DNA from: Escherichia coli
Lineage (GTDB): Bacteria > Pseudomonadota > Gammaproteobacteria > Enterobacterales > Enterobacteriaceae
DNA length: 64,000 bases
Assembly (NCBI RefSeq): GCF_044324785.1
Contig: NZ_CP172127.1
Reading direction: 5' to 3' (one strand)
Shown: piece after piece, positions 30,466 to 37,807 of the stretch
How the letters are laid out: every line of letters starts with the position of its first letter
Numbering within the stretch: position 1 is the first letter of the stretch
Notes under the pieces: generated by a model
Seen by the model: only the letters and a program-made list of their open reading frames with translations
Database searches by the model: none
What the model was told of the DNA's origin: nothing
Made by a program: the position numbers and the translations under genes

Positions 30466-30682
30466 ATCAGACATCACTGGCGTTATCCACAAGGGTAACG
30501 CCAGTTCCCATTACATCAATGCTTCACAATATACATAGTCCGACTGTACGCCACATCTTCAGGGTTATTAATGGGATAACCTTTCAGCCACGGCTTGATT
30601 AATCGTCCATTGGTATATTGATAAATTGGTGCAATCGGTGCTTGCTCCATGAGGATTTTTTCTGCCGCATTGTAATCGGCAT

Positions 30683-30691
30683 TACGCGCTT
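30683..30691. repeat. IS1 target-site duplication, left copy (TACGCGCTT)
   Basis: identical 9-mer immediately flanks both IS1 ends. Confidence 0.9.
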
Positions 30692-30746
30692 GGTGATGCT
30701 GCCAACTTACTGATTTAGTGTATGATGGTGTTTTTGAGGTGCTCCA

Positions 30747-31022
30747 GTGGCTTCTGTTTCTATCAGCTGTCCCTCCTGTTCAGCTACTGACGGGGTGGTG
30801 CGTAACGGCAAAAGCACCGCCGGACATCAGCGCTATCTCTGCTCTCACTGCCGTAAAACATGGCAACTGCAGTTCACTTACACCGCTTCTCAACCCGGTA
30901 CGCACCAGAAAATCATTGATATGGCCATGAATGGCGTTGGATGCCGGGCAACTGCCCGCATTATGGGCGTTGGCCTCAACACGATTTTACGTCACTTAAA
31001 AAACTCAGGCCGCAGTCGGTAA
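30747..31022 (+). CDS. insA: IS1 InsA (91 aa)
   Basis: [43 protein letters not shown]... zinc-finger/HTH InsA. Confidence 0.95.
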
Positions 31023-31444
31023 CCTCGCGCATACAGCCGGGCAGTGACGTCATCGTCTGCGCGGAAATGGACGAACAGTGGGGCTATGTCGGGGCTAAAT
31101 CGCGCCAGCGCTGGCTGTTTTACGCGTATGACAGTCTCCGGAAGACGGTTGTTGCGCACGTATTCGGTGAACGCACTATGGCGACGCTGGGGCGTCTTAT
31201 GAGCCTGCTGTCACCCTTTGACGTGGTGATATGGATGACGGATGGCTGGCCGCTGTATGAATCCCGCCTGAAGGGAAAGCTGCACGTAATCAGCAAGCGA
31301 TATACGCAGCGAATTGAGCGGCATAACCTGAATCTGAGGCAGCACCTGGCACGGCTGGGACGGAAGTCGCTGTCGTTTTCAAAATCGGTGGAGCTGCATG
31401 ACAAAGTCATCGGGCATTATCTGAACATAAAACACTATCAATAA
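30941..31444 (+). CDS. insB: IS1 InsB reading frame (expressed as InsAB' by -1 frameshift)
   Basis: 167-aa ORF in the -1 frame overlapping the insA 3' end. Confidence 0.9.
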
Positions 31445-31459
31445 GTTGGAGTCATTACC

Positions 31460-31468
31460 TACGCGCTT
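31460..31468. repeat. IS1 target-site duplication, right copy (TACGCGCTT)
   Basis: identical to 30683-30691. Confidence 0.9.
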
Positions 31469-32963
31469 TAACGGTATTTTCCGTTGATGCCTGGGCCAGT
31501 ACTTTGTCGTATGCCGGATTGTTAAAGCGTGAAATATTCCCTGAATGCGTTGACGTTAACAACGTAAGGAAAGTGGAGGGTTCATTATAATCCCCTACCC
31601 ATGAGGCGCGGATAACATCAAAATTGCCGGTGTTACGGCTATCGATATAGGTTTTCCATTCCTGATTCTGCAATTTAACATCTACGCCAAGGTTCTTTTT
31701 CCACATCGATGCTACAGCAATCGCAATTTTTTGATGGTTTTCTGAAGTGTTATACAAAAGCGTCAGCTTCAGCGGTTTTTGCGGACCATAACCAGCTGCG
31801 CTCAACAAAGTTTTTGCCTGCGCATTCAGTTCTTCCTGACTCATTTGTTCAAACGGCGAAGGCTCCGGCGTAAAACCGGCAGTAACATCTGGTGTAAAAT
31901 GCCACGCTGGCTTTTCCCCCGTCCCCAACACTTTTTCGGTCATCAGGCGGCGATCTATCGTCATACTTAATGCCAGGCGAACACGCTGATCGGCCGTCGG
32001 CCCTTTTTGCGTGTTAAACGCATAATAATAGGTCCCGAGCTGCGGCGGCGTATAAACCTGCCCCGGAATATCCTTCAACAGCTTCTGATACATATTTTTC
32101 GGGAAGGATTCGGTGATATCAATATCCCCCGCGAGGTAACGCTTAGTGGCTGCGGATTCCTGATTAATTGGCAAGAAGGTCACTTTTTGCAGTACCGTTT
32201 TGGCGTTATCCCAATAATGGGTATTCGGTACCACGACCAGTTTTTCATTGACTACGCGCTCTTCAAGAACATAAGCGCCATTACCGATCAGTTTTCCGGG
32301 TTTCGTCCACTCTTTAATGCTTTCTACGTTGGCTTTTTGCACCGGGAAGAAGGCAAAGTTAGCGGTTAAATTCACAAACCACGGCAACGGTTTATCAAGC
32401 TGGATTTTCAAAGTATGGGCATCAACTGCGGTGACGCCAAGCTGGTCAGGCGTGGCTTTACCATCAATAATCGCCTGTGCGTTGTTGATTCCCGCCAGCG
32501 CGGCAAACCATGCAAATGGCGACAATGTTTTTGGGTCCACCAGACGTTGCCAGCTGTAGACAAAATCTTGCGCCGTTACCGGTGTGCCATCCGCCCATTT
32601 TGCGTTATCGCGCAAGGTAAATGTCCAGATACGGTTGTCATTACTTTTCCACTGAGTCGCAACGCCGGGGACAATCTCCCCTTTCTCGTTCTGATTCACC
32701 AGTCCTTCAAACAGATCGCGAATGACCTGAATCTCTGGCAGGCCCACGGCTTTAGCGGGATCCAGCGACGCAGGTTCATCTTTAATGTGGCGCACCAACT
32801 CCTGCTTCTCTGCCAGTACTGTGCCGCTCGGAACTTCTGCAGCATACGAAAGAGAAATGCTGCTGACCAACAGCGCACAACACGTGACTGAAACAGAGTG
32901 CTTCATAAGTTTCCCTCTAACCGACATTAAAATTGATGCGTAATTATTTGTTTCGCCTTAAAG

Positions 32964-32998
32964 AAATGCAAACAACTTCCATCAAAAAAGTGACAAAG
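32964..32998. promoter_or_regulatory. conserved motif upstream of mppA (copy A); candidate operator/promoter element, possibly for PgrR(YcjZ)
   Basis: AAATGCAAACAACTTCcatCAAAAAAGTGA matches 28 of 32 positions with a copy upstream of mpaA (36954-36988). Confidence 0.45.
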
Positions 32999-33242
32999 GA
33001 AGCATCAAATGTTTTAAGTATCAATATATCAAATCAGATTTAGCGTAAATAATAGTCTCCAAAATGCGGTAAAGCACATAGAACTCCGAACACTACGTTC
33101 GGGCTTCGCACGTTCAAACCCGTTTTCGGTATCATAATCAGCATCTGTCGCCATTGTGCGAAGAATAAAAAATGACCAAAACGTTGAAAGGAACTGAGAA
33201 TACGTTAAGAGAAGAATTAAATTAATGTATCAGCAAGTAGTG

Positions 33243-34142
33243 CTAAACAGCACCTTTATACTTCAGCCTATCTATAAATAATGAGAATGCCGAGCCAGCA
33301 TGTCGACGGTGTGGATAGTACAGGTGATAACCGGGTAAATCTGGTGTGAATTTATCCAAAACACGTATCAGTTTTTTTTCTTTAATAGCCCGCTCAACCT
33401 GATCATAAGGTAGATACGCCAACCCATGCCCATCAATTGCAGCATCAATGATCAGGTCTATCGTATTCAGTAAAAGCTGACCTTCCATGCGAACACGAAC
33501 TTCACGTCCACCGCGTATTAATCTCCAGCGATTTGCTGTACCCGATGTGGGAAGATACAAATTAATTGCCTGATGATCTATTAATTGTGACACTGACGTT
33601 GGAGCACTTCGACGAGAAAAATAATCCGGTGAGCCAACAATAGCCATTGGTATATCTGGCCCGATTCGAATGGCGATCATATCTTTATCCATCTCCCCAC
33701 CCAGACGGACGCCTGCATCAAAACGTTCAGAAACGACATCGGTCAAACCATAATCAATGGTAAGCTGGATATCAATTTCAGGATGCGATTTCAGGAATGT
33801 GCGCATAGCTGGTAACAATATCGTTTTTGCTGCATGTTCTACAGTAGTAATACGTATTGTCCCGGATGGGCGGTTCTGCAGATCGCTCAGGGATGTCAGG
33901 GCAGAATCTATGTCATGCAACATAGGGCCAAGAACAGACAAAAGATGCTCGCCCGCTTCAGTGGGTACAACGCTGCGCGTGGTTCGCGTCAGAAGCCGCA
34001 ATCCTAATCGTTCTTCTATACGGCGCACTATCTGGCTTAAAGCTGACTGCGCCATGCTCAGGCGGGCTGCTGCGCGAGTGAAGCTACGCTCCTCTGCAAC
34101 GACGACAAACGCCATCAGATCAGCGATTTCTTCACGCTTCAT
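33243..34142 (-). CDS. ycjZ: LysR-family regulator YcjZ (I believe renamed PgrR, peptidoglycan-recycling regulator) (299 aa)
   Basis: 299 aa; N-terminal LysR HTH (AARLSMAQSALSQIVRRIEERLG); divergent from ycjY. Confidence 0.85.
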   Translation of the reverse strand: MKREEIADLMAFVVVAEERSFTRAAARLSMAQSALSQIVRRIEERLGLRLLTRTTRSVVPTEAGEHLLSVLGPMLHDIDSALTSLSDLQNRPSGTIRITTVEHAAKTILLPAMRTFLKSHPEIDIQLTIDYGLTDVVSERFDAGVRLGGEMDKDMIAIRIGPDIPMAIVGSPDYFSRRSAPTSVSQLIDHQAINLYLPTSGTANRWRLIRGGREVRVRMEGQLLLNTIDLIIDAAIDGHGLAYLPYDQVERAIKEKKLIRVLDKFTPDLPGYHLYYPHRRHAGSAFSLFIDRLKYKGAV

Positions 34143-34166
34143 TCAGTATCTCCATACAATCTATTA

Positions 34167-34180
34167 ATCATTTAAATGAT
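34167..34180. promoter_or_regulatory. perfect 14-bp palindrome in the ycjZ/ycjY divergent region (candidate LysR-type operator)
   Basis: ATCATTTAAATGAT, followed by direct repeat GGTCTAATCA at 34182-34191 and 34200-34209. Confidence 0.4.
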
Positions 34181-34267
34181 AGGTCTAATCATGATTTTGG
34201 GTCTAATCAACTTAATGATCAATATCTATAGTGATATCACCAACCGTCAAAACGAACCGACAACTCC

Positions 34268-35200
34268 ATGAGGAACGGAATGATGAATAATAAAGTCAGC
34301 TTCACTAACAGCAATAATCCAACCATCTCTTTGTCTGCAGTGATCTATTTCCCTCCAAAATTTGATGAAACCCGTCAGTATCCGGCAATTGTGGTATCTC
34401 ACCCAGGTGGGGGCGTTAAAGAGCAAACGGCCGGAACCTATGCCGAAAAACTGGCGGAAAAGGGATTTGTCACTATTGCTTATGACGCATCTTATCAAGG
34501 TGAAAGCGGCGGCGAGCCGCGTCAGTTAGAAAACCCATACATTCGTACTGAAGACGTCAGTGCCGTGATTGATTACCTGACAACGCTTTCTTATGTCGAC
34601 AATACCCGAATTGGTGCGATGGGAATTTGTGCCGGTGCAGGATATACAGCCAATGCTGCAATTCAGGATCGCCGCATCAAGGCCATCGGTACTGTTAGTG
34701 CGGTCAATATTGGTTCGATGTTCCGTAATGGTTGGGAAAACAATGTGAAATCTATTGATGCCCTACCATACGTTGACGCGGGTTCAAACGCCCGAACCAG
34801 CGATATTAGCAGCGGAGAATACGCCACTATGCCACTGGCACCAATGAAGGAGTCCGATGCGCCGAACGAAGAACTGCGTCAGGCCTGGGAGTATTACCAC
34901 ACCCCTCGCGCGCAGTATCCAACAGCACCGGGTTACGCTACTTTGCGCAGCCTTAACCAGATTATTACCTATGATGCTTACCATATGGCGGAAGTGTACC
35001 TGACTCAGCCGATACAGATTGTGGCGGGCAGCCAGGCAGGGAGCAAATGGATGAGTGACGACCTGTACGATCGAGCATCAAGCCAGGATAAACGCTATCA
35101 CATTGTTGAAGGCGCAAACCATATGGATCTTTATGACGGCAAAGCCTATGTGGCTGAAGCAATTTCAGTATTAGCTCCGTTCTTTGAGGAAACTCTGTAA
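34268..35200 (+). CDS. ycjY: alpha/beta hydrolase, dienelactone-hydrolase-like with Cys nucleophile, YcjY (310 aa)
   Basis: GxCxG nucleophile elbow (MGICAGAG) in an alpha/beta-hydrolase-like sequence; start may be a few codons downstream. Confidence 0.8.
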   Translation: MRNGMMNNKVSFTNSNNPTISLSAVIYFPPKFDETRQYPAIVVSHPGGGVKEQTAGTYAEKLAEKGFVTIAYDASYQGESGGEPRQLENPYIRTEDVSAVIDYLTTLSYVDNTRIGAMGICAGAGYTANAAIQDRRIKAIGTVSAVNIGSMFRNGWENNVKSIDALPYVDAGSNARTSDISSGEYATMPLAPMKESDAPNEELRQAWEYYHTPRAQYPTAPGYATLRSLNQIITYDAYHMAEVYLTQPIQIVAGSQAGSKWMSDDLYDRASSQDKRYHIVEGANHMDLYDGKAYVAEAISVLAPFFEETL

Positions 35201-36132
35201 TGAAACATATTCAAATCCGCAATAGTGATATGGCCTGGCATATTGCTGCCAATATTCAGTTTCCACCAAATTTTGATGAGTCAAAACAGTATCCGGCGAT
35301 TATCAGCGTCCATCCTTTTGGCAGTTGTAAGGAGCAGACGTCTGGCAATATCTATGGCAAGGCATTGGCTGAAAAAGGCTATGTCGTTCTCGCTTATGAC
35401 GCCAGTTTCCAGGGAGAATCTGGTGGGGAGCCTCGTTGGATAGAAGATCCGACACAGCGCGTTGAGGATATTAGCCGTGTTATCGATTATGCAGTAACTC
35501 TGCCATATGTTGATGCTGAACGCATTGGCGTGCTGGGTGTGTGTGGGGGGGGTGGCTATGCCATTAATGCCGCGCTGACAGAAAAACGAATTAAAGCTGT
35601 AGTGAGTATTACGGGTGTTAATATCGGGCGTCTTTTTCGAGAAGGTTTCAGCAATTACGATCCGATTGGCGCATTGAATGCAATGGCGTCGCAACGAACC
35701 AAAGAGGCTCGTGGTGGAGAATTACAGATCAACGAATTACTTCCCGCCAGCCTGGATGCAGCAAAAGCCCATGGACTGACCGAACGCGATGTTTATGAAG
35801 CAACTGACTACTATAAAACACCACGCGGGCAACAACCGGGAGGTGCGACAAAAATGTTGTTCTCACATGCACAGAAAACGCTGGCCTGGGATGCCTTCGC
35901 ATTTACTGAAGTGTTACTGACTCAGCCGGTGATGGTAGTAGTTGGTGAAAAAGTCGGTGCCTTCGGTGCTTATCGTGATGGACTGGAAGTCTATGGCCGG
36001 GCGATGGTTTCGCAGGATCGTCAGTTAGTTTCGTTACCCGATTTCTCACATTATGAACTGTATGACAAACCGGAAGCAGTTCAGGAGGCGCTGGAAAAAG
36101 TTATTCCTTTTTTCAACACCCATCTGGGATAA
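35200..36132 (+). CDS. paralogous alpha/beta hydrolase with Cys nucleophile (310 aa); corresponds in position to a region I recall as the K-12 ymjD remnant
   Basis: Clear paralog of the upstream gene (shared blocks AYDASFQGESGGEPR, LGVCGGGG); start overlaps ycjY stop. Confidence 0.75.
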   Translation: MKHIQIRNSDMAWHIAANIQFPPNFDESKQYPAIISVHPFGSCKEQTSGNIYGKALAEKGYVVLAYDASFQGESGGEPRWIEDPTQRVEDISRVIDYAVTLPYVDAERIGVLGVCGGGGYAINAALTEKRIKAVVSITGVNIGRLFREGFSNYDPIGALNAMASQRTKEARGGELQINELLPASLDAAKAHGLTERDVYEATDYYKTPRGQQPGGATKMLFSHAQKTLAWDAFAFTEVLLTQPVMVVVGEKVGAFGAYRDGLEVYGRAMVSQDRQLVSLPDFSHYELYDKPEAVQEALEKVIPFFNTHLG

Positions 36133-36137
36133 GTTTC

Positions 36138-36788
36138 ATGAGAAATATTATGAAAAAAGTACTCATTCTTGGTGCTGGCGGTCAGATAGCCCGCCATGTG
36201 ATTAATCAACTGGCAGATAAACAAACCATTAAACAAACTTTATTTGCTCGTCAGCCAGCAAAAATACACAAACCCTATCCAACTAATAGCCAGATTATTA
36301 TGGGGGATGTACTGAATCATGCAGCACTGAAGCAGGCCATGCAGGGACAGGATGTTGTGTATGCCAACCTTACGGGGGAAGATTTAGATATTCAGGCAAA
36401 TTCAGTGATCGCTGCGATGAAAGCCTGTGATGTTAAACGTCTGATCTTTGTTCTTTCCCTCGGTATTTATGATGAAGTTCCAGGAAAATTTGGCGAATGG
36501 AATAATGCAGTTATTGGTGAACCCCTAAAACCATTCCGCAGGGCTGCGGATGCAATTGAGGCTTCTGGACTGGAATATACAATTCTTCGCCCTGCCTGGC
36601 TGACTGATGAAGATATTATTGATTATGAGCTTACCTCACGCAATGAACCATTCAAAGGTACGATCGTATCACGTAAGAGTGTCGCCGCATTAATTACAGA
36701 TATCATCGATAAACCTGAGAAACACATTGGTGAGAATATAGGCATCAATCAACCCGGGACTGATGGCGATAAACCCTTCTTCATGTAA
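36138..36788 (+). CDS. NAD(P)H-binding NmrA/SDR-like protein (216 aa); corresponds in position to a region I recall as the K-12 ymjC remnant
   Basis: Rossmann motif VLILGAGGQIARH near the N-terminus; true start may be MKKVLILG at 36150. Confidence 0.7.
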   Translation: MRNIMKKVLILGAGGQIARHVINQLADKQTIKQTLFARQPAKIHKPYPTNSQIIMGDVLNHAALKQAMQGQDVVYANLTGEDLDIQANSVIAAMKACDVKRLIFVLSLGIYDEVPGKFGEWNNAVIGEPLKPFRRAADAIEASGLEYTILRPAWLTDEDIIDYELTSRNEPFKGTIVSRKSVAALITDIIDKPEKHIGENIGINQPGTDGDKPFFM

Positions 36789-36953
36789 ATCAATTATATA
36801 GCTACCATCGTACTGTACTATGTGCAGTACGATTTATTAAACTTATTAAGGTGAACTGATCAATCAGATGCGATTAACATGTGTAGAACCAGTAAGAATA
36901 AAATACGCCATGTATATAACATTACGACAATTCTAATATCTGCACATCAATGA

Positions 36954-36988
36954 AAATGCAAACAACTTCTGGCAAAAAAGTGATACAA
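36954..36988. promoter_or_regulatory. conserved motif upstream of mpaA (copy B)
   Basis: AAATGCAAACAACTTCtggCAAAAAAGTGA; matches copy A at 28 of 32 positions. Confidence 0.45.
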
Positions 36989-37078
36989 GATCGATGACAT
37001 AGCGTTGAAGAAAAGGATTTGATAATCCGCAAAATTTGCACAACACTGCCTGTAATACTTCCTGAACCAGAGACGATC

Positions 37079-37807
37079 ATGACCGTAACCCGCCCACGCG
37101 CCGAACGCGGCGCATTTCCGCCCGGAACAGAACATTACGGACGTTCATTATTGGGCGCGCCGTTAATCTGGTTTCCTGCCCCTGCAGCCAGCCGCGAAAG
37201 TGGTTTGATTCTGGCTGGCACTCACGGTGATGAAAACTCTTCGGTCGTCACGCTCTCCTGTGCTCTGCGGACGTTGACACCTTCTTTGCGCCGTCATCAT
37301 GTGGTGCTGTGTGTAAATCCTGACGGCTGCCAGTTGGGGTTACGGGCCAATGCTAATGGTGTGGATTTAAACAGAAACTTTCCGGCGGCGAACTGGAAGG
37401 AAGGTGAAACCGTTTATCGCTGGAACAGCGCCGCTGAAGAACGTGATGTCGTTTTACTGACAGGTGACAAACCTGGCTCCGAACCTGAAACCCAGGCGCT
37501 GTGCCAGCTTATACACCGCATTCAACCTGCCTGGGTGGTCTCATTCCACGATCCACTGGCCTGTATTGAAGATCCCAGACACAGCGAATTAGGCGAATGG
37601 CTAGCCCAGGCGTTTGAATTGCCTCTGGTAACCAGCGTCGGTTATGAAACACCTGGCTCTTTCGGTAGTTGGTGTGCGGATCTCAACCTGCATTGCATAA
37701 CCGCAGAGTTTCCGCCCATCTCCTCCGACGAAGCCAGCGAAAAATATCTCTTTGCGATGGCAAACTTGCTGCGCTGGCATCCTAAAGATGCAATTCGCCC
37801 GTTGTGA
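37079..37807 (+). CDS. mpaA: murein peptide amidase A, gamma-D-Glu-meso-DAP zinc carboxypeptidase (242 aa)
   Basis: ORF track 37019..37807 trimmed to MTVTRPRAERG; zinc-binding HGDEN motif. Confidence 0.9.
   Translation: MTVTRPRAERGAFPPGTEHYGRSLLGAPLIWFPAPAASRESGLILAGTHGDENSSVVTLSCALRTLTPSLRRHHVVLCVNPDGCQLGLRANANGVDLNRNFPAANWKEGETVYRWNSAAEERDVVLLTGDKPGSEPETQALCQLIHRIQPAWVVSFHDPLACIEDPRHSELGEWLAQAFELPLVTSVGYETPGSFGSWCADLNLHCITAEFPPISSDEASEKYLFAMANLLRWHPKDAIRPL

What the first reader, a model, noticed from the sequence alone, without database searches (positions are those of the whole stretch)
34268..36788. Intact tandem Cys-nucleophile hydrolase paralogs plus an NmrA-like NAD(P)-binding gene upstream of mpaA
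Two adjacent 310-aa paralogs carry GxCxG (MGICAGAG, LGVCGGGG) where alpha/beta hydrolases usually have GxSxG, as in dienelactone-type cysteine hydrolases. They are followed by a 216-aa Rossmann protein and then mpaA. In K-12, as I recall, this position holds ycjY plus the ymjD/ymjC deletion remnants, so this strain appears to keep the ancestral complete operon. The enzymes suggest an unassigned hydrolysis/reduction step linked to peptidoglycan peptide catabolism under the divergent LysR regulator.
Basis: partly seen in the sequence, partly recalled or inferred. Interest (0 to 1): 0.55.

Follow-up and report, generated by a model that had tools for sequence, protein, structure and literature searches.

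The report
Mobile PgrR cysteine-hydrolase cassette, intact form
The three genes are real, intact and correctly read, but they are already annotated genes of a 4-kb mobile cassette with its own regulator. The cassette landed between two cell-wall-recycling genes in Escherichia and has been partly deleted in K-12, so it is probably not part of cell-wall peptide catabolism.

Summary
Observation confirmed. Window 34280-35200 is ycjY (306 aa, PDB 5XB6). Window 35200-36132 is an intact 310-aa paralog, 42% identical to ycjY. Window 36150-36788 is an NAD(P)-binding atypical SDR (about 99% identical to PDB 3QVO). mpaA follows. K-12 lacks 867 bp (leaving ymjD) and 664 bp (leaving ymjC).

Cys sits at the nucleophile elbow and His follows beta8 in both hydrolases. 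The usual acid slot after beta7 holds no acidic residue, so a Cys-His-Asp triad is not shown.

The regulator pgrR, the two hydrolases and the SDR form a 3,990-bp insert flanked by a 30-37-bp direct repeat. It lies in the mppA-mpaA spacer. Citrobacter, Enterobacter, Klebsiella and 174 E. coli genomes have the empty site.

The LysR + hydrolase-pair unit, with a conserved operator, occurs in Serratia, Klebsiella (including a conjugative IncF plasmid), Rhizobiales and Sphingomonadales. It never lies next to murein genes there.

Among complete E. coli genomes about 24% are intact, 31% lack hydrolase 2, 42% are K-12-like and 3% are empty.

The function is unknown. It is probably thioester-intermediate hydrolysis of a small ester, lactone or thioester, followed by NADPH reduction. 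Ordinary and largely known.

The parts
32964..33000 (.). Left copy of the direct repeat AAATGCAAACAACTTC...CAAAAAAGTGA that brackets the inserted cassette
   Evidence: the repeat finder family D3, spacing 3,990 bp, 84% over 37 nt. The empty site in E. coli AF57 and in Citrobacter has a single copy.
33070..33144 (-). queH (epoxyqueuosine reductase) fragment inside the left end of the insert, probably a relic of the donor context
   Evidence: PGAP pseudogene annotation in O157:H7 F8092B, L050 1871-1945, mapped onto window coordinates.
33243..34142 (-). pgrR (ycjZ), the LysR-type regulator of the cassette
   Evidence: ORF of 299 aa. 99-100% identical to K-12 and N3 PgrR. Orthologues at 57-88% identity sit divergently beside the hydrolase pair in other taxa.
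34167..34208 (.). Conserved operator: palindrome ATCATTTAAATGAT (34167-34180) plus the GTCTAATC box (34200-34207)
   Evidence: These columns are invariant in an alignment of 11 LysR-Hyd1 intergenic regions from Enterobacterales, Rhizobiales and Sphingomonadales (A3). Sequence shown.
   Evidence: E 1.5e-201 to PDB 5XB6 'YcjY'. Pfam S15/DLH/Hydrolase_4 matches. Conservation data.
35200..36132 (+). Hyd2, the full-length form of K-12 ymjD. It is a paralogous Cys hydrolase of 310 aa (Cys115, His284). Its start overlaps the Hyd1 stop by 1 nt.
   Evidence: 42% identical to Hyd1. 99% identical to an E. coli cluster of 1,490 members, and 79-87% identical in Serratia, Klebsiella and Rhizobiales. AlphaFold model pLDDT 96.7. 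TM 0.91 to 5XB6.
36150..36788 (+). Full-length form of K-12 ymjC, an NAD(P)H-binding atypical SDR of 212 aa (216 aa if translation starts at 36138)
   Evidence: PF13460 E 3e-54. E 4.5e-138 and about 99% identity to PDB 3QVO 'NmrA family protein'.
36806..36834 (+). Hairpin with a 12-bp stem about 20 nt after the SDR stop. It is a candidate operon terminator and lies inside the K-12 deletion.
   Evidence: MFE -17.2 kcal/mol, z -2.9 against shuffles. The same hairpin is present in the deletion-1-only allele. The U-tract is imperfect (UUUAUUAAAC).
36954..36990 (.). Right copy of the flanking direct repeat. Sequence from here to mpaA is homologous to the empty-site spacer.
   Evidence: The right end of K-12 deletion 2 (36952) lies 1 nt to its left.
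37079..37807 (+). mpaA (murein tripeptide amidase). It is a resident neighbour, not part of the insert.
   Evidence: NF007897, 478 bits. It is adjacent to mppA, without the cassette, in Citrobacter, Enterobacter, Klebsiella and 174 E. coli genomes.

Best explanation
Window ~32994-36953 is a 3.99-kb horizontally acquired islet. It is bracketed by a 30-37-bp direct repeat and sits in the old mppA-mpaA intergenic spacer. It carries a self-contained LysR-regulated operon: pgrR, transcribed divergently from ycjY (Hyd1), Hyd2 and an NADPH-binding atypical SDR. The window holds the complete allele. K-12 holds a doubly deleted one (ymjD and ymjC).

Shown: Hyd1 and Hyd2 belong to the uncharacterised YcjY/PA2218 family of capped alpha/beta hydrolases. 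In that family the elbow nucleophile is normally Cys and the post-beta8 His is conserved.

Inferred mechanism: PgrR binds the conserved ATCA-N6-TGAT / GTCTAATC operator and releases or activates the operon when a small-molecule effector appears. The two hydrolases attack a small, probably carboxylate-bearing ester, lactone or thioester through a Cys thioester acyl-enzyme. His acts as the base, and no canonical acid is present. The SDR then reduces a carbonyl or enone product with NADPH. The substrate is unknown.

The tie to mpaA is positional. In K-12, deletion 2 removed the SDR 3' end and the hairpin that follows it. That may be why ycjY-ymjDC-mpaA behaves as one PgrR-controlled operon there.
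For: Insert and repeat.

Empty sites: Citrobacter, Enterobacter and Klebsiella; E. coli AF57, IAI39 and CE10, and 174 of 5,418 genomes overall.

Cassette elsewhere without murein genes: Serratia, Klebsiella, Afipia and Sphingobium. Across 36 species-level loci the LysR + Hyd1 + Hyd2 core is present in about 28. The same four genes lie on a conjugative IncF plasmid next to IS110, and the pair lies on an Agrobacterium pAt plasmid.

Operator conserved across bacterial classes.

Strong purifying selection: dN/dS 0.02-0.13 with dS saturated and GC content adapted to each host.

Catalytic residues: the nucleophile column is Cys in 68 of 76 representatives that share under 50% identity, and Ser in 2. 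His is 92% conserved, R132 100%, and the K-E-Q motif over 95%. Elbow and His topology appear in the AlphaFold model. Nearest folds are listed.

Related architectures: a tandem GICAG + GICGG fusion protein, and relatives fused to CMD (PcaC-like) or cupin domains.

Other: SDR family and structure. Hairpin. The strongest PgrR SELEX site lies at ycjY/ycjZ, and PgrR autoregulates (PMC5934670, PMC10505187).
Against: - No biochemical data exist for any family member that I could find, and no paper was found for 5XB6. Substrate, product and effector are therefore guesses.
- The hairpin lacks a clean U-tract. Equivalent positions in other taxa show no significant hairpin, so the terminator and read-through idea is weak.
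- Published K-12 work assigns PgrR to peptidoglycan recycling, including ycjG, which is not downstream of ycjY (Shimada 2013, cited in PMC5934670; I could not read it).
- ycjY over-expression causes filamentation (PMC3614548), which is compatible with a cell-wall link.
- Hyd2 is lost in about 73% of E. coli genomes and the SDR in about 42%, so the full cassette is dispensable there.
- The empty site could result from excision rather than being ancestral within E. coli.
Confidence: 0.7

Rival explanations
1. The hydrolases and the reductase carry out an unassigned hydrolysis/reduction step of murein-peptide catabolism, co-transcribed with mpaA under PgrR.
For: The genes lie on the same strand immediately upstream of mpaA. 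In K-12 the PgrR regulon is listed as ycjY-ymjDC-mpaA, ycjG and ycjXF-tyrR (PMC5934670). ycjY over-expression gives filaments (PMC3614548).
Against: The cassette never co-occurs with mpaA, ycjG or mppA outside Escherichia. The murein genes are adjacent without it in Citrobacter, Enterobacter, Klebsiella and 174 E. coli genomes. The block is an insertion flanked by repeats. Hyd2 and the SDR are deleted in most E. coli. In this very window mppA is truncated by IS1 while the cassette is intact.
Confidence: 0.12
2. The Cys proteins are acyltransferases or polymerases rather than hydrolases. One example is the proposed cPHB polymerase role, based on the PHA-synthase-like GXCXG box. Another is BAAT-like acyl-CoA:amine transfer.
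For: ycjY was picked as a candidate cPHB polymerase because of GXCXG (Rychlewski, cited in PMC3709699). There is a weak BAAT_C Pfam match around the elbow. A Cys thioester intermediate suits transfer chemistry.
Against: The nearest solved folds are esterases, thioesterases and monoglyceride lipases. At 306-310 aa the proteins lack the extra PhaC regions. No experimental support was found. The pairing with an NADPH reductase fits catabolism or detoxification better than polymer synthesis.
Confidence: 0.1
3. The cassette is decaying cargo with no current role in Escherichia. The intact allele here is simply a not-yet-deleted copy.
For: About 73% of complete E. coli genomes lack Hyd2, 42% also lack the SDR 3' part and 3% lack everything.
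Against: The ORFs are intact. dN/dS is 0.02-0.06 against the Serratia and Klebsiella orthologues. ycjY and pgrR are retained in about 97% of genomes. The intact allele is fixed in large lineages such as O157:H7 and is also found in O145, O103 and O111 strains.
Confidence: 0.08

Closest known systems
E. coli K-12 ycjY-ymjD-ymjC-mpaA locus and its regulator PgrR (YcjZ)
   Same: It is the same locus and the same regulator. PgrR is 99-100% identical and YcjY 97%. The YcjY structure is 5XB6.
   Different: The window keeps the 867 bp and 664 bp that K-12 has lost. ymjD is therefore a 310-aa hydrolase, ymjC is a 212-aa SDR, and a hairpin-containing spacer separates the SDR from mpaA.
Dienelactone hydrolase (ClcD; Pfam PF01738)
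   Same: It has the alpha/beta-hydrolase fold with Cys in place of Ser at the elbow. There is a partial DLH profile match (E 8e-9 and 6e-8).
   Different: The match covers only the N-terminal half. A ~100-residue cap is inserted between beta6 and beta7. No acidic residue occupies the slot after beta7. DLH structures are not among the top structural neighbours.
PA2218 of Pseudomonas aeruginosa (PDB 2HDW) and the COG1073 'FrsA-like' hydrolases
   Same: They belong to the same family (E 1.7e-46, TM 0.87). PA2218 has the same G-I-C-G-W-G-G elbow and the H-x-D-L-Y-D motif.
   Different: PA2218 is also uncharacterised, so it gives no functional transfer.
UilS quorum-quenching AHL lactonase of Serratia (NF047920; PMC11633161)
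   Same: It is the best NCBIfam hit, and for Hyd2 the alignment is full length. It is a DLH-annotated lactonase.
   Different: The scores of 87 and 78 bits are far below the 400-bit cut-off, so these proteins are not members. The paper gives no catalytic-residue data.
PcaL/PcaDC-type enol-lactonase + carboxymuconolactone decarboxylase fusions
   Same: Distant family members (P0136, P0162) carry two CMD/PcaC-like domains fused to the Cys hydrolase. This hints at lactone chemistry.
   Different: The fusions occur in relatives that share under 50% identity, not in this cassette. PcaD uses Ser, and no pca genes lie nearby.
NAD_binding_10 atypical SDRs (human BLVRB flavin/biliverdin reductase, ChuY/ShuY, PDB 3QVO)
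   Same: There is a full-length PF13460 match, a GAGGQIA dinucleotide motif, and about 99% identity to 3QVO.
   Different: The protein is only 20-30 bits from the characterised members (BLVRB, ChuY), so its substrate is unknown.

Membership tests
alpha/beta-hydrolase fold superfamily | Canonical beta-sheet/helix core, confirmed by structural similarity | tested here: met
   AlphaFold model of Hyd2: pLDDT 96.7, pTM 0.94. Foldseek TM 0.91 to 5XB6, 0.87 to 2HDW and 0.8 to 7QJM and 7D79. Hyd1 is 5XB6 itself.
alpha/beta-hydrolase fold superfamily | Nucleophile in a G-x-Nu-x-G elbow between beta5 and the following helix | tested here: met
   Hyd2 G113-V-C115-G-G lies between strand 104-114 and helix 116-127. 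Hyd1 G-I-C-A-G aligns with G-M-S-F-G of 7D78. The column is Cys in 68 of 76 family representatives.
alpha/beta-hydrolase fold superfamily | Catalytic His in the loop after the last core strand | tested here: met
   Hyd2 His284 directly follows strand 274-283. The column is His in 70 of 76 representatives.
alpha/beta-hydrolase fold superfamily | Catalytic acid (Asp/Glu) in the loop after beta7 | tested here: not met
   The Hyd2 loop 252-256 is V-G-A-F-G. Hyd1 has A-G-S-K-W at the aligned positions. The family column is D in 23 of 76 and G in 23 of 76. An acid from elsewhere (D283/D286, E48) cannot be judged without coordinates.
Dienelactone hydrolase family (PF01738, ClcD-like) | Full-length match to the DLH domain, and DLH as the best-scoring family | tested here: not met
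   Only DLH model positions 11-123 and 10-129 of 217 are matched. Peptidase_S15 scores higher. No DLH structure appears among the top 50 Foldseek hits.
Dienelactone hydrolase family (PF01738, ClcD-like) | Cys-His-Asp triad with Cys as nucleophile | tested here: inconclusive
   Cys and His are in place. Asp was not identified.
Dienelactone hydrolase family (PF01738, ClcD-like) | Hydrolysis of dienelactone to maleylacetate | not testable with these tools
   This needs an enzyme assay.
YcjY/PA2218 family (COG1073-type capped hydrolases) | Significant full-length sequence and fold similarity to YcjY and PA2218, with the family motifs (HPGGGxKEQ, GESGGxPR, GxCxGGG, HxDLYD) | tested here: met
UilS AHL-lactonase family (NF047920) | Score above the curated cut-off of 400 bits | tested here: not met
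   87.3 bits for Hyd1 and 77.6 bits for Hyd2.
NAD_binding_10 / NmrA-like atypical SDR | Full-length Rossmann NAD(P)H-binding domain with a Gly-rich dinucleotide motif | tested here: met
   PF13460 positions 1-184 of 184, E 3e-54. The NmrA match (PF05368) covers only the N-terminal 100 residues, E 1e-10. The motif LGAGGQIA is visible in the translation. 3QVO is named 'NmrA family protein'.
Murein-peptide recycling gene set (mppA, mpaA, ycjG) | Conserved co-occurrence or synteny with the recycling genes across taxa | tested here: not met
   Such neighbours are found only in Escherichia. They are absent from 34 non-Escherichia loci and from the two plasmid loci examined. The recycling genes are contiguous without the cassette.
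Murein-peptide recycling gene set (mppA, mpaA, ycjG) | Co-transcription with mpaA in an intact-island strain | not testable with these tools
   This needs RT-PCR or Term-seq. A hairpin (z -2.9) lies between the SDR and mpaA.
Genomic islet / horizontally transferred cassette | Empty and occupied sites with flanking direct repeats, and the same unit in unrelated hosts and on plasmids | tested here: met
   No integrase or transposase lies inside the E. coli insert, so the insertion mechanism is unknown.

The most novel reading that the evidence does not exclude
PgrR is not primarily a peptidoglycan-recycling regulator. It is the cognate sensor of a widely transferred Cys-hydrolase pair that acts on an unknown small molecule. 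On this reading, the PgrR control of mpaA reported in K-12 is an evolutionary accident. It arose when the cassette inserted into the mppA-mpaA spacer, and then a 664-bp deletion removed the operon's terminator and fused mpaA to the ycjY transcript. The YcjY/PA2218 family would then be a distinct class of Cys-His alpha/beta hydrolases that lack the canonical acid, working as an obligate pair.
Probability: 0.3. Interest if true: 0.5.

Novelty: already known. Interest (0 to 1): 0.3.

Why it matters
The genes themselves are already in the databases:
- RefSeq annotates 'alpha/beta hydrolase (x2) | SDR family oxidoreductase' in about 1,280 complete E. coli genomes.
- YcjY and the SDR have crystal structures.
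- The GXCXG box of YcjY has been noted in print.
- PgrR is named.

What the analysis adds is context. The regulator and the enzymes are one mobile unit that is foreign to the murein-recycling locus. The text-book K-12 arrangement is the most degraded of four alleles. This cautions against reading YcjY function, and the PgrR 'peptidoglycan recycling' label, from K-12 gene order alone.

It also points to intact-island strains such as O157:H7 as the right background for finding the substrate. The enzyme pair is very strongly conserved (about 80% identity between gamma- and alpha-proteobacteria) and is still uncharacterised.

Tried and rejected
- Literature: I found no paper for 5XB6. Nothing useful turned up for PA2218. 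The UilS paper contains no catalytic-residue information. Shimada 2013 and Choi 2016 are not held, so the K-12 regulon claims are second-hand.
- NCBIfam on the extra reductases downstream in Serratia (two classical SDRs, a flavodoxin-like protein, an OYE) gave only generic names. They hint at detoxification of reducible electrophiles but are not part of the E. coli insert.
- My own ORF clustering of flanks was noisy in high-GC loci because of spurious antisense ORFs. It was used only to confirm that LysR and the hydrolases are the sole recurrent neighbours.
- The consensus promoter/terminator scan found nothing above shuffles and missed the hairpin because the U-tract is imperfect.
- Folding the regions after the last cassette gene in other taxa gave no significant hairpins, so conservation of a terminator is not shown.
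- The third triad residue could not be located, because the tools return no coordinates.
- I considered and rejected membership of the UilS family (scores below cut-off) and of the ClcD-type DLH family (partial match, different architecture).
Full report
**1. Observation**

mpaA follows, and a divergent LysR gene lies at 33243-34142(-).

The two hydrolases are 42% identical over 299 residues (E 4e-72). They carry RIGAMGICAGAGY and RIGVLGVCGGGGY. Pfam gives overlapping alpha/beta-hydrolase families for both: Peptidase_S15, DLH, Hydrolase_4 and Abhydrolase_1. The third protein is a full-length NAD_binding_10 domain (E 3e-54) with a weaker NmrA match.

Two details need correction:
- ycjY really starts at 34280, giving 306 aa. 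The evidence is the Shine-Dalgarno GAGGAA at 34270-75, the K-12 annotation and PDB 5XB6.
- PGAP starts the SDR at 36150, giving 212 aa.

**2. K-12 comparison**

MG1655 has ycjY, ymjD (21 aa), ymjC (60 aa) and mpaA. blastn and junction inspection show that K-12 lacks two segments of the window.
- Segment 35255-36121 is 867 bp, or 289 codons, and the deletion is in frame. ymjD is Hyd2 residues 1-18 plus N-L-G.
- Segment 36289-36952 is 664 bp, with AAT microhomology at the junction. ymjC is the first ~46 SDR residues reading into the spacer.

A third allele, seen in isolate NRZ105019 (L003), lacks only the first segment.

Counts in 5,426 complete RefSeq E. coli genomes:

| Allele | Genomes | Share |
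|---|---|---|
| Intact (Hyd2 DNA present) | ~1,280 | ~24% |
| Deletion 1 only (SDR 3' part present in 2,942 genomes, minus those with Hyd2 DNA) | ~1,660 | ~31% |
| K-12-like, both deletions | ~2,300 | ~42% |
| Empty site | 174 | ~3% |

RefSeq already annotates the intact allele as 'alpha/beta hydrolase (x2) | SDR family oxidoreductase'. It is found in O157:H7, O145, O103 and O111 strains.

**3. The block is an insertion**

In Citrobacter, Enterobacter and Klebsiella, mppA and mpaA are divergent neighbours about 185 bp apart, followed by ycjG, tpx and tyrR. E. coli AF57, IAI39, CE10 and others have the same empty arrangement.

I aligned the empty spacer with the window. One spacer segment, AAATGCAA.CAACTTC...CAAAAAAGTGA, is present twice in the window, at 32964-33000 and 36954-36990. 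The copies are 3,990 bp apart (family D3). Everything between them is insert: a queH fragment, pgrR, Hyd1, Hyd2, the SDR and about 165 bp of trailing sequence.

The right end of K-12 deletion 2 falls 1 nt from the right repeat. I cannot explain this coincidence.

**4. The cassette is a mobile unit that is independent of murein genes**

Hyd2 is 79-87% identical in Serratia, Klebsiella, Citrobacter, Mesorhizobium, Afipia, Agrobacterium, Sphingobium and others.

Gene neighbourhoods and a scan of one genome per species (analysed) show a PgrR-like LysR gene (57-88% identity) lying divergently beside Hyd1-Hyd2 in about 28 of 36 loci. The SDR is present in about 9 of them. MpaA, YcjG and MppA appear as neighbours only in Escherichia.

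The exact four-gene unit sits on a conjugative IncF plasmid of K. pneumoniae beside an IS110 transposase. The hydrolase pair is also on an Agrobacterium pAt plasmid.

The LysR-Hyd1 intergenic region keeps an invariant ATCA-N6-TGATA palindrome and a GTCTAAT box from E. coli to Rhizobiales. The regulator-operator-enzyme relationship is therefore ancestral to the cassette.

dN/dS is 0.02-0.13, with saturated dS and host-adapted GC content. The proteins are under very strong constraint, and the transfers are not recent.

**5. Enzymology**

YcjY is PDB 5XB6, and PA2218 (2HDW) is a family member with the same GICGWGG elbow.

A profile search of 1.84 billion cluster representatives found 599 relatives at E <= 1e-30. 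I aligned 76 full-length sequences, with these results:
- The nucleophile column is Cys in 68 and Ser in 2.
- His281 is 92% conserved.
- R132 is invariant.
- K47-E48-Q49, D69, G74/S76/G78, R172 and Y205-Y206 are at least 89% conserved.

The AlphaFold model of Hyd2 (pLDDT 96.7) puts Cys115 between strand 104-114 and helix 116-127, which is the nucleophile elbow. It puts His284 right after strand 274-283. The loop after beta7 (252-256, VGAFG) has no acidic residue, and Hyd1 has AGSKW at the aligned positions. Across the family this column is Asp in 23 of 76 sequences. A Cys-His pair in canonical positions is therefore supported. A Cys-His-Asp triad is not.

After YcjY and PA2218, the nearest folds are a Chloroflexus polyester hydrolase, the fungal thioesterase DcsB, GrgF, PET46, feruloyl esterases and monoglyceride lipases. 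ClcD-type dienelactone hydrolase is not among them. The best NCBIfam hit, the UilS AHL lactonase, scores 87 and 78 bits against a cut-off of 400.

Distant relatives offer hints:
- One is a tandem fusion of a GICAG domain and a GICGG domain, in the same order as Hyd1-Hyd2.
- Others have N-terminal CMD (PcaC-like) repeats or a cupin domain. These are weak pointers to lactone or carboxylate chemistry.

The SDR is about 99% identical to PDB 3QVO. It is distantly related to BLVRB and ChuY.

**6. Regulation and the link to mpaA**

The literature names YcjZ as PgrR. Its strongest SELEX site is at ycjY/ycjZ, and its K-12 regulon is given as ycjY-ymjDC-mpaA, ycjG and ycjXF-tyrR (PMC5934670). PgrR is negatively autoregulated (PMC10505187). 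ycjY over-expression gives filaments (PMC3614548). The GXCXG box was noted long ago (PMC3709699).

In the intact allele a 12-bp-stem hairpin follows the SDR stop. Its free energy is -17 kcal/mol and its z-score is -2.9, but the U-tract is imperfect. It lies within deletion 2.

I infer, with modest confidence, that the cassette operon normally ends there. On this view K-12-type alleles read through into mpaA, which would explain the reported operon. The inference is untested, and hairpins are not significant at the equivalent positions in other taxa.

**7. Verdict**

The K-12 recollection is right. The Cys is at the elbow. But the genes are already annotated and partly solved structurally. 'Ancestral operon' holds only relative to K-12. 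The proposed role in murein-peptide catabolism is contradicted by comparative context.

The most likely reading is a self-contained, horizontally spread, PgrR-controlled pair of Cys-nucleophile hydrolases plus an NADPH reductase, acting on an unidentified small ester, lactone or thioester. Interest is low to moderate. The useful lesson is that K-12 carries the most degraded allele, and that the PgrR label may reflect an insertion-plus-deletion accident.

Noticed in passing
window 30680-31455 and 31455-32927(-): An IS1 copy (insA/insB ORFs at 30747-31444) abuts mppA, whose ORF lacks about the last 55 codons of the 537-aa K-12 protein. No complete E. coli genome shares this junction. The murein-tripeptide binding protein is therefore probably inactive here, and the source may be a Shigella or another IS1-rich lineage.
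   Followed up: partly
window 32964-33000 and 36954-36990: A 30-37-bp direct repeat brackets the 3,990-bp pgrR-to-SDR insert. Empty-site genomes have one copy. There is no integrase or transposase inside the insert, so the insertion mechanism is unknown.
   Followed up: yes
window ~33070-33144(-): PGAP annotates a 75-bp internal fragment of queH (epoxyqueuosine reductase) between mppA and pgrR in O157:H7 (L050). It is probably a relic of the donor genome context.
   Followed up: no
window 36949-36953: The right breakpoint of K-12 deletion 2 lies 1 nt from the right flanking repeat, at the edge of the insert. This coincidence is unexplained and may indicate a boundary-associated recombination event.
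   Followed up: partly
window 36138-36160: The SDR 5' end differs by a 12-nt indel between alleles. The window has ATGAGAAATATTATGAAAAAAG (MRNIMKK...). K-12 and the deletion-1-only allele have ATGAAAAATG (MKN...). The true start codon in this allele is therefore ambiguous (216 or 212 aa).
   Followed up: no
window 36806-36834: A perfect 12-bp-stem hairpin follows the SDR stop (z -2.9). A degenerate version sits at the same place on the K. pneumoniae IncF plasmid copy (L051 8588-8640).
   Followed up: partly
L004 7624-11105 and L009 7663-9663: In Serratia marcescens and Klebsiella variicola the cassette continues downstream. Both carry a classical SDR and an Old-Yellow-Enzyme-type flavoreductase. 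Serratia additionally has a second classical SDR and a Flavodoxin_4 protein. This suggests a reductive detoxification context.
   Followed up: partly
proteins P0135, P0136, P0162, P0164: Multi-domain relatives exist: a tandem GICAG + GICGG double hydrolase, CMD-CMD-hydrolase fusions, and a secreted cupin-hydrolase fusion.
   Followed up: partly
window 37782-37807: mpaA (+) and ycjG (-) overlap convergently by 26 bp at their 3' ends, as in K-12.
   Followed up: no
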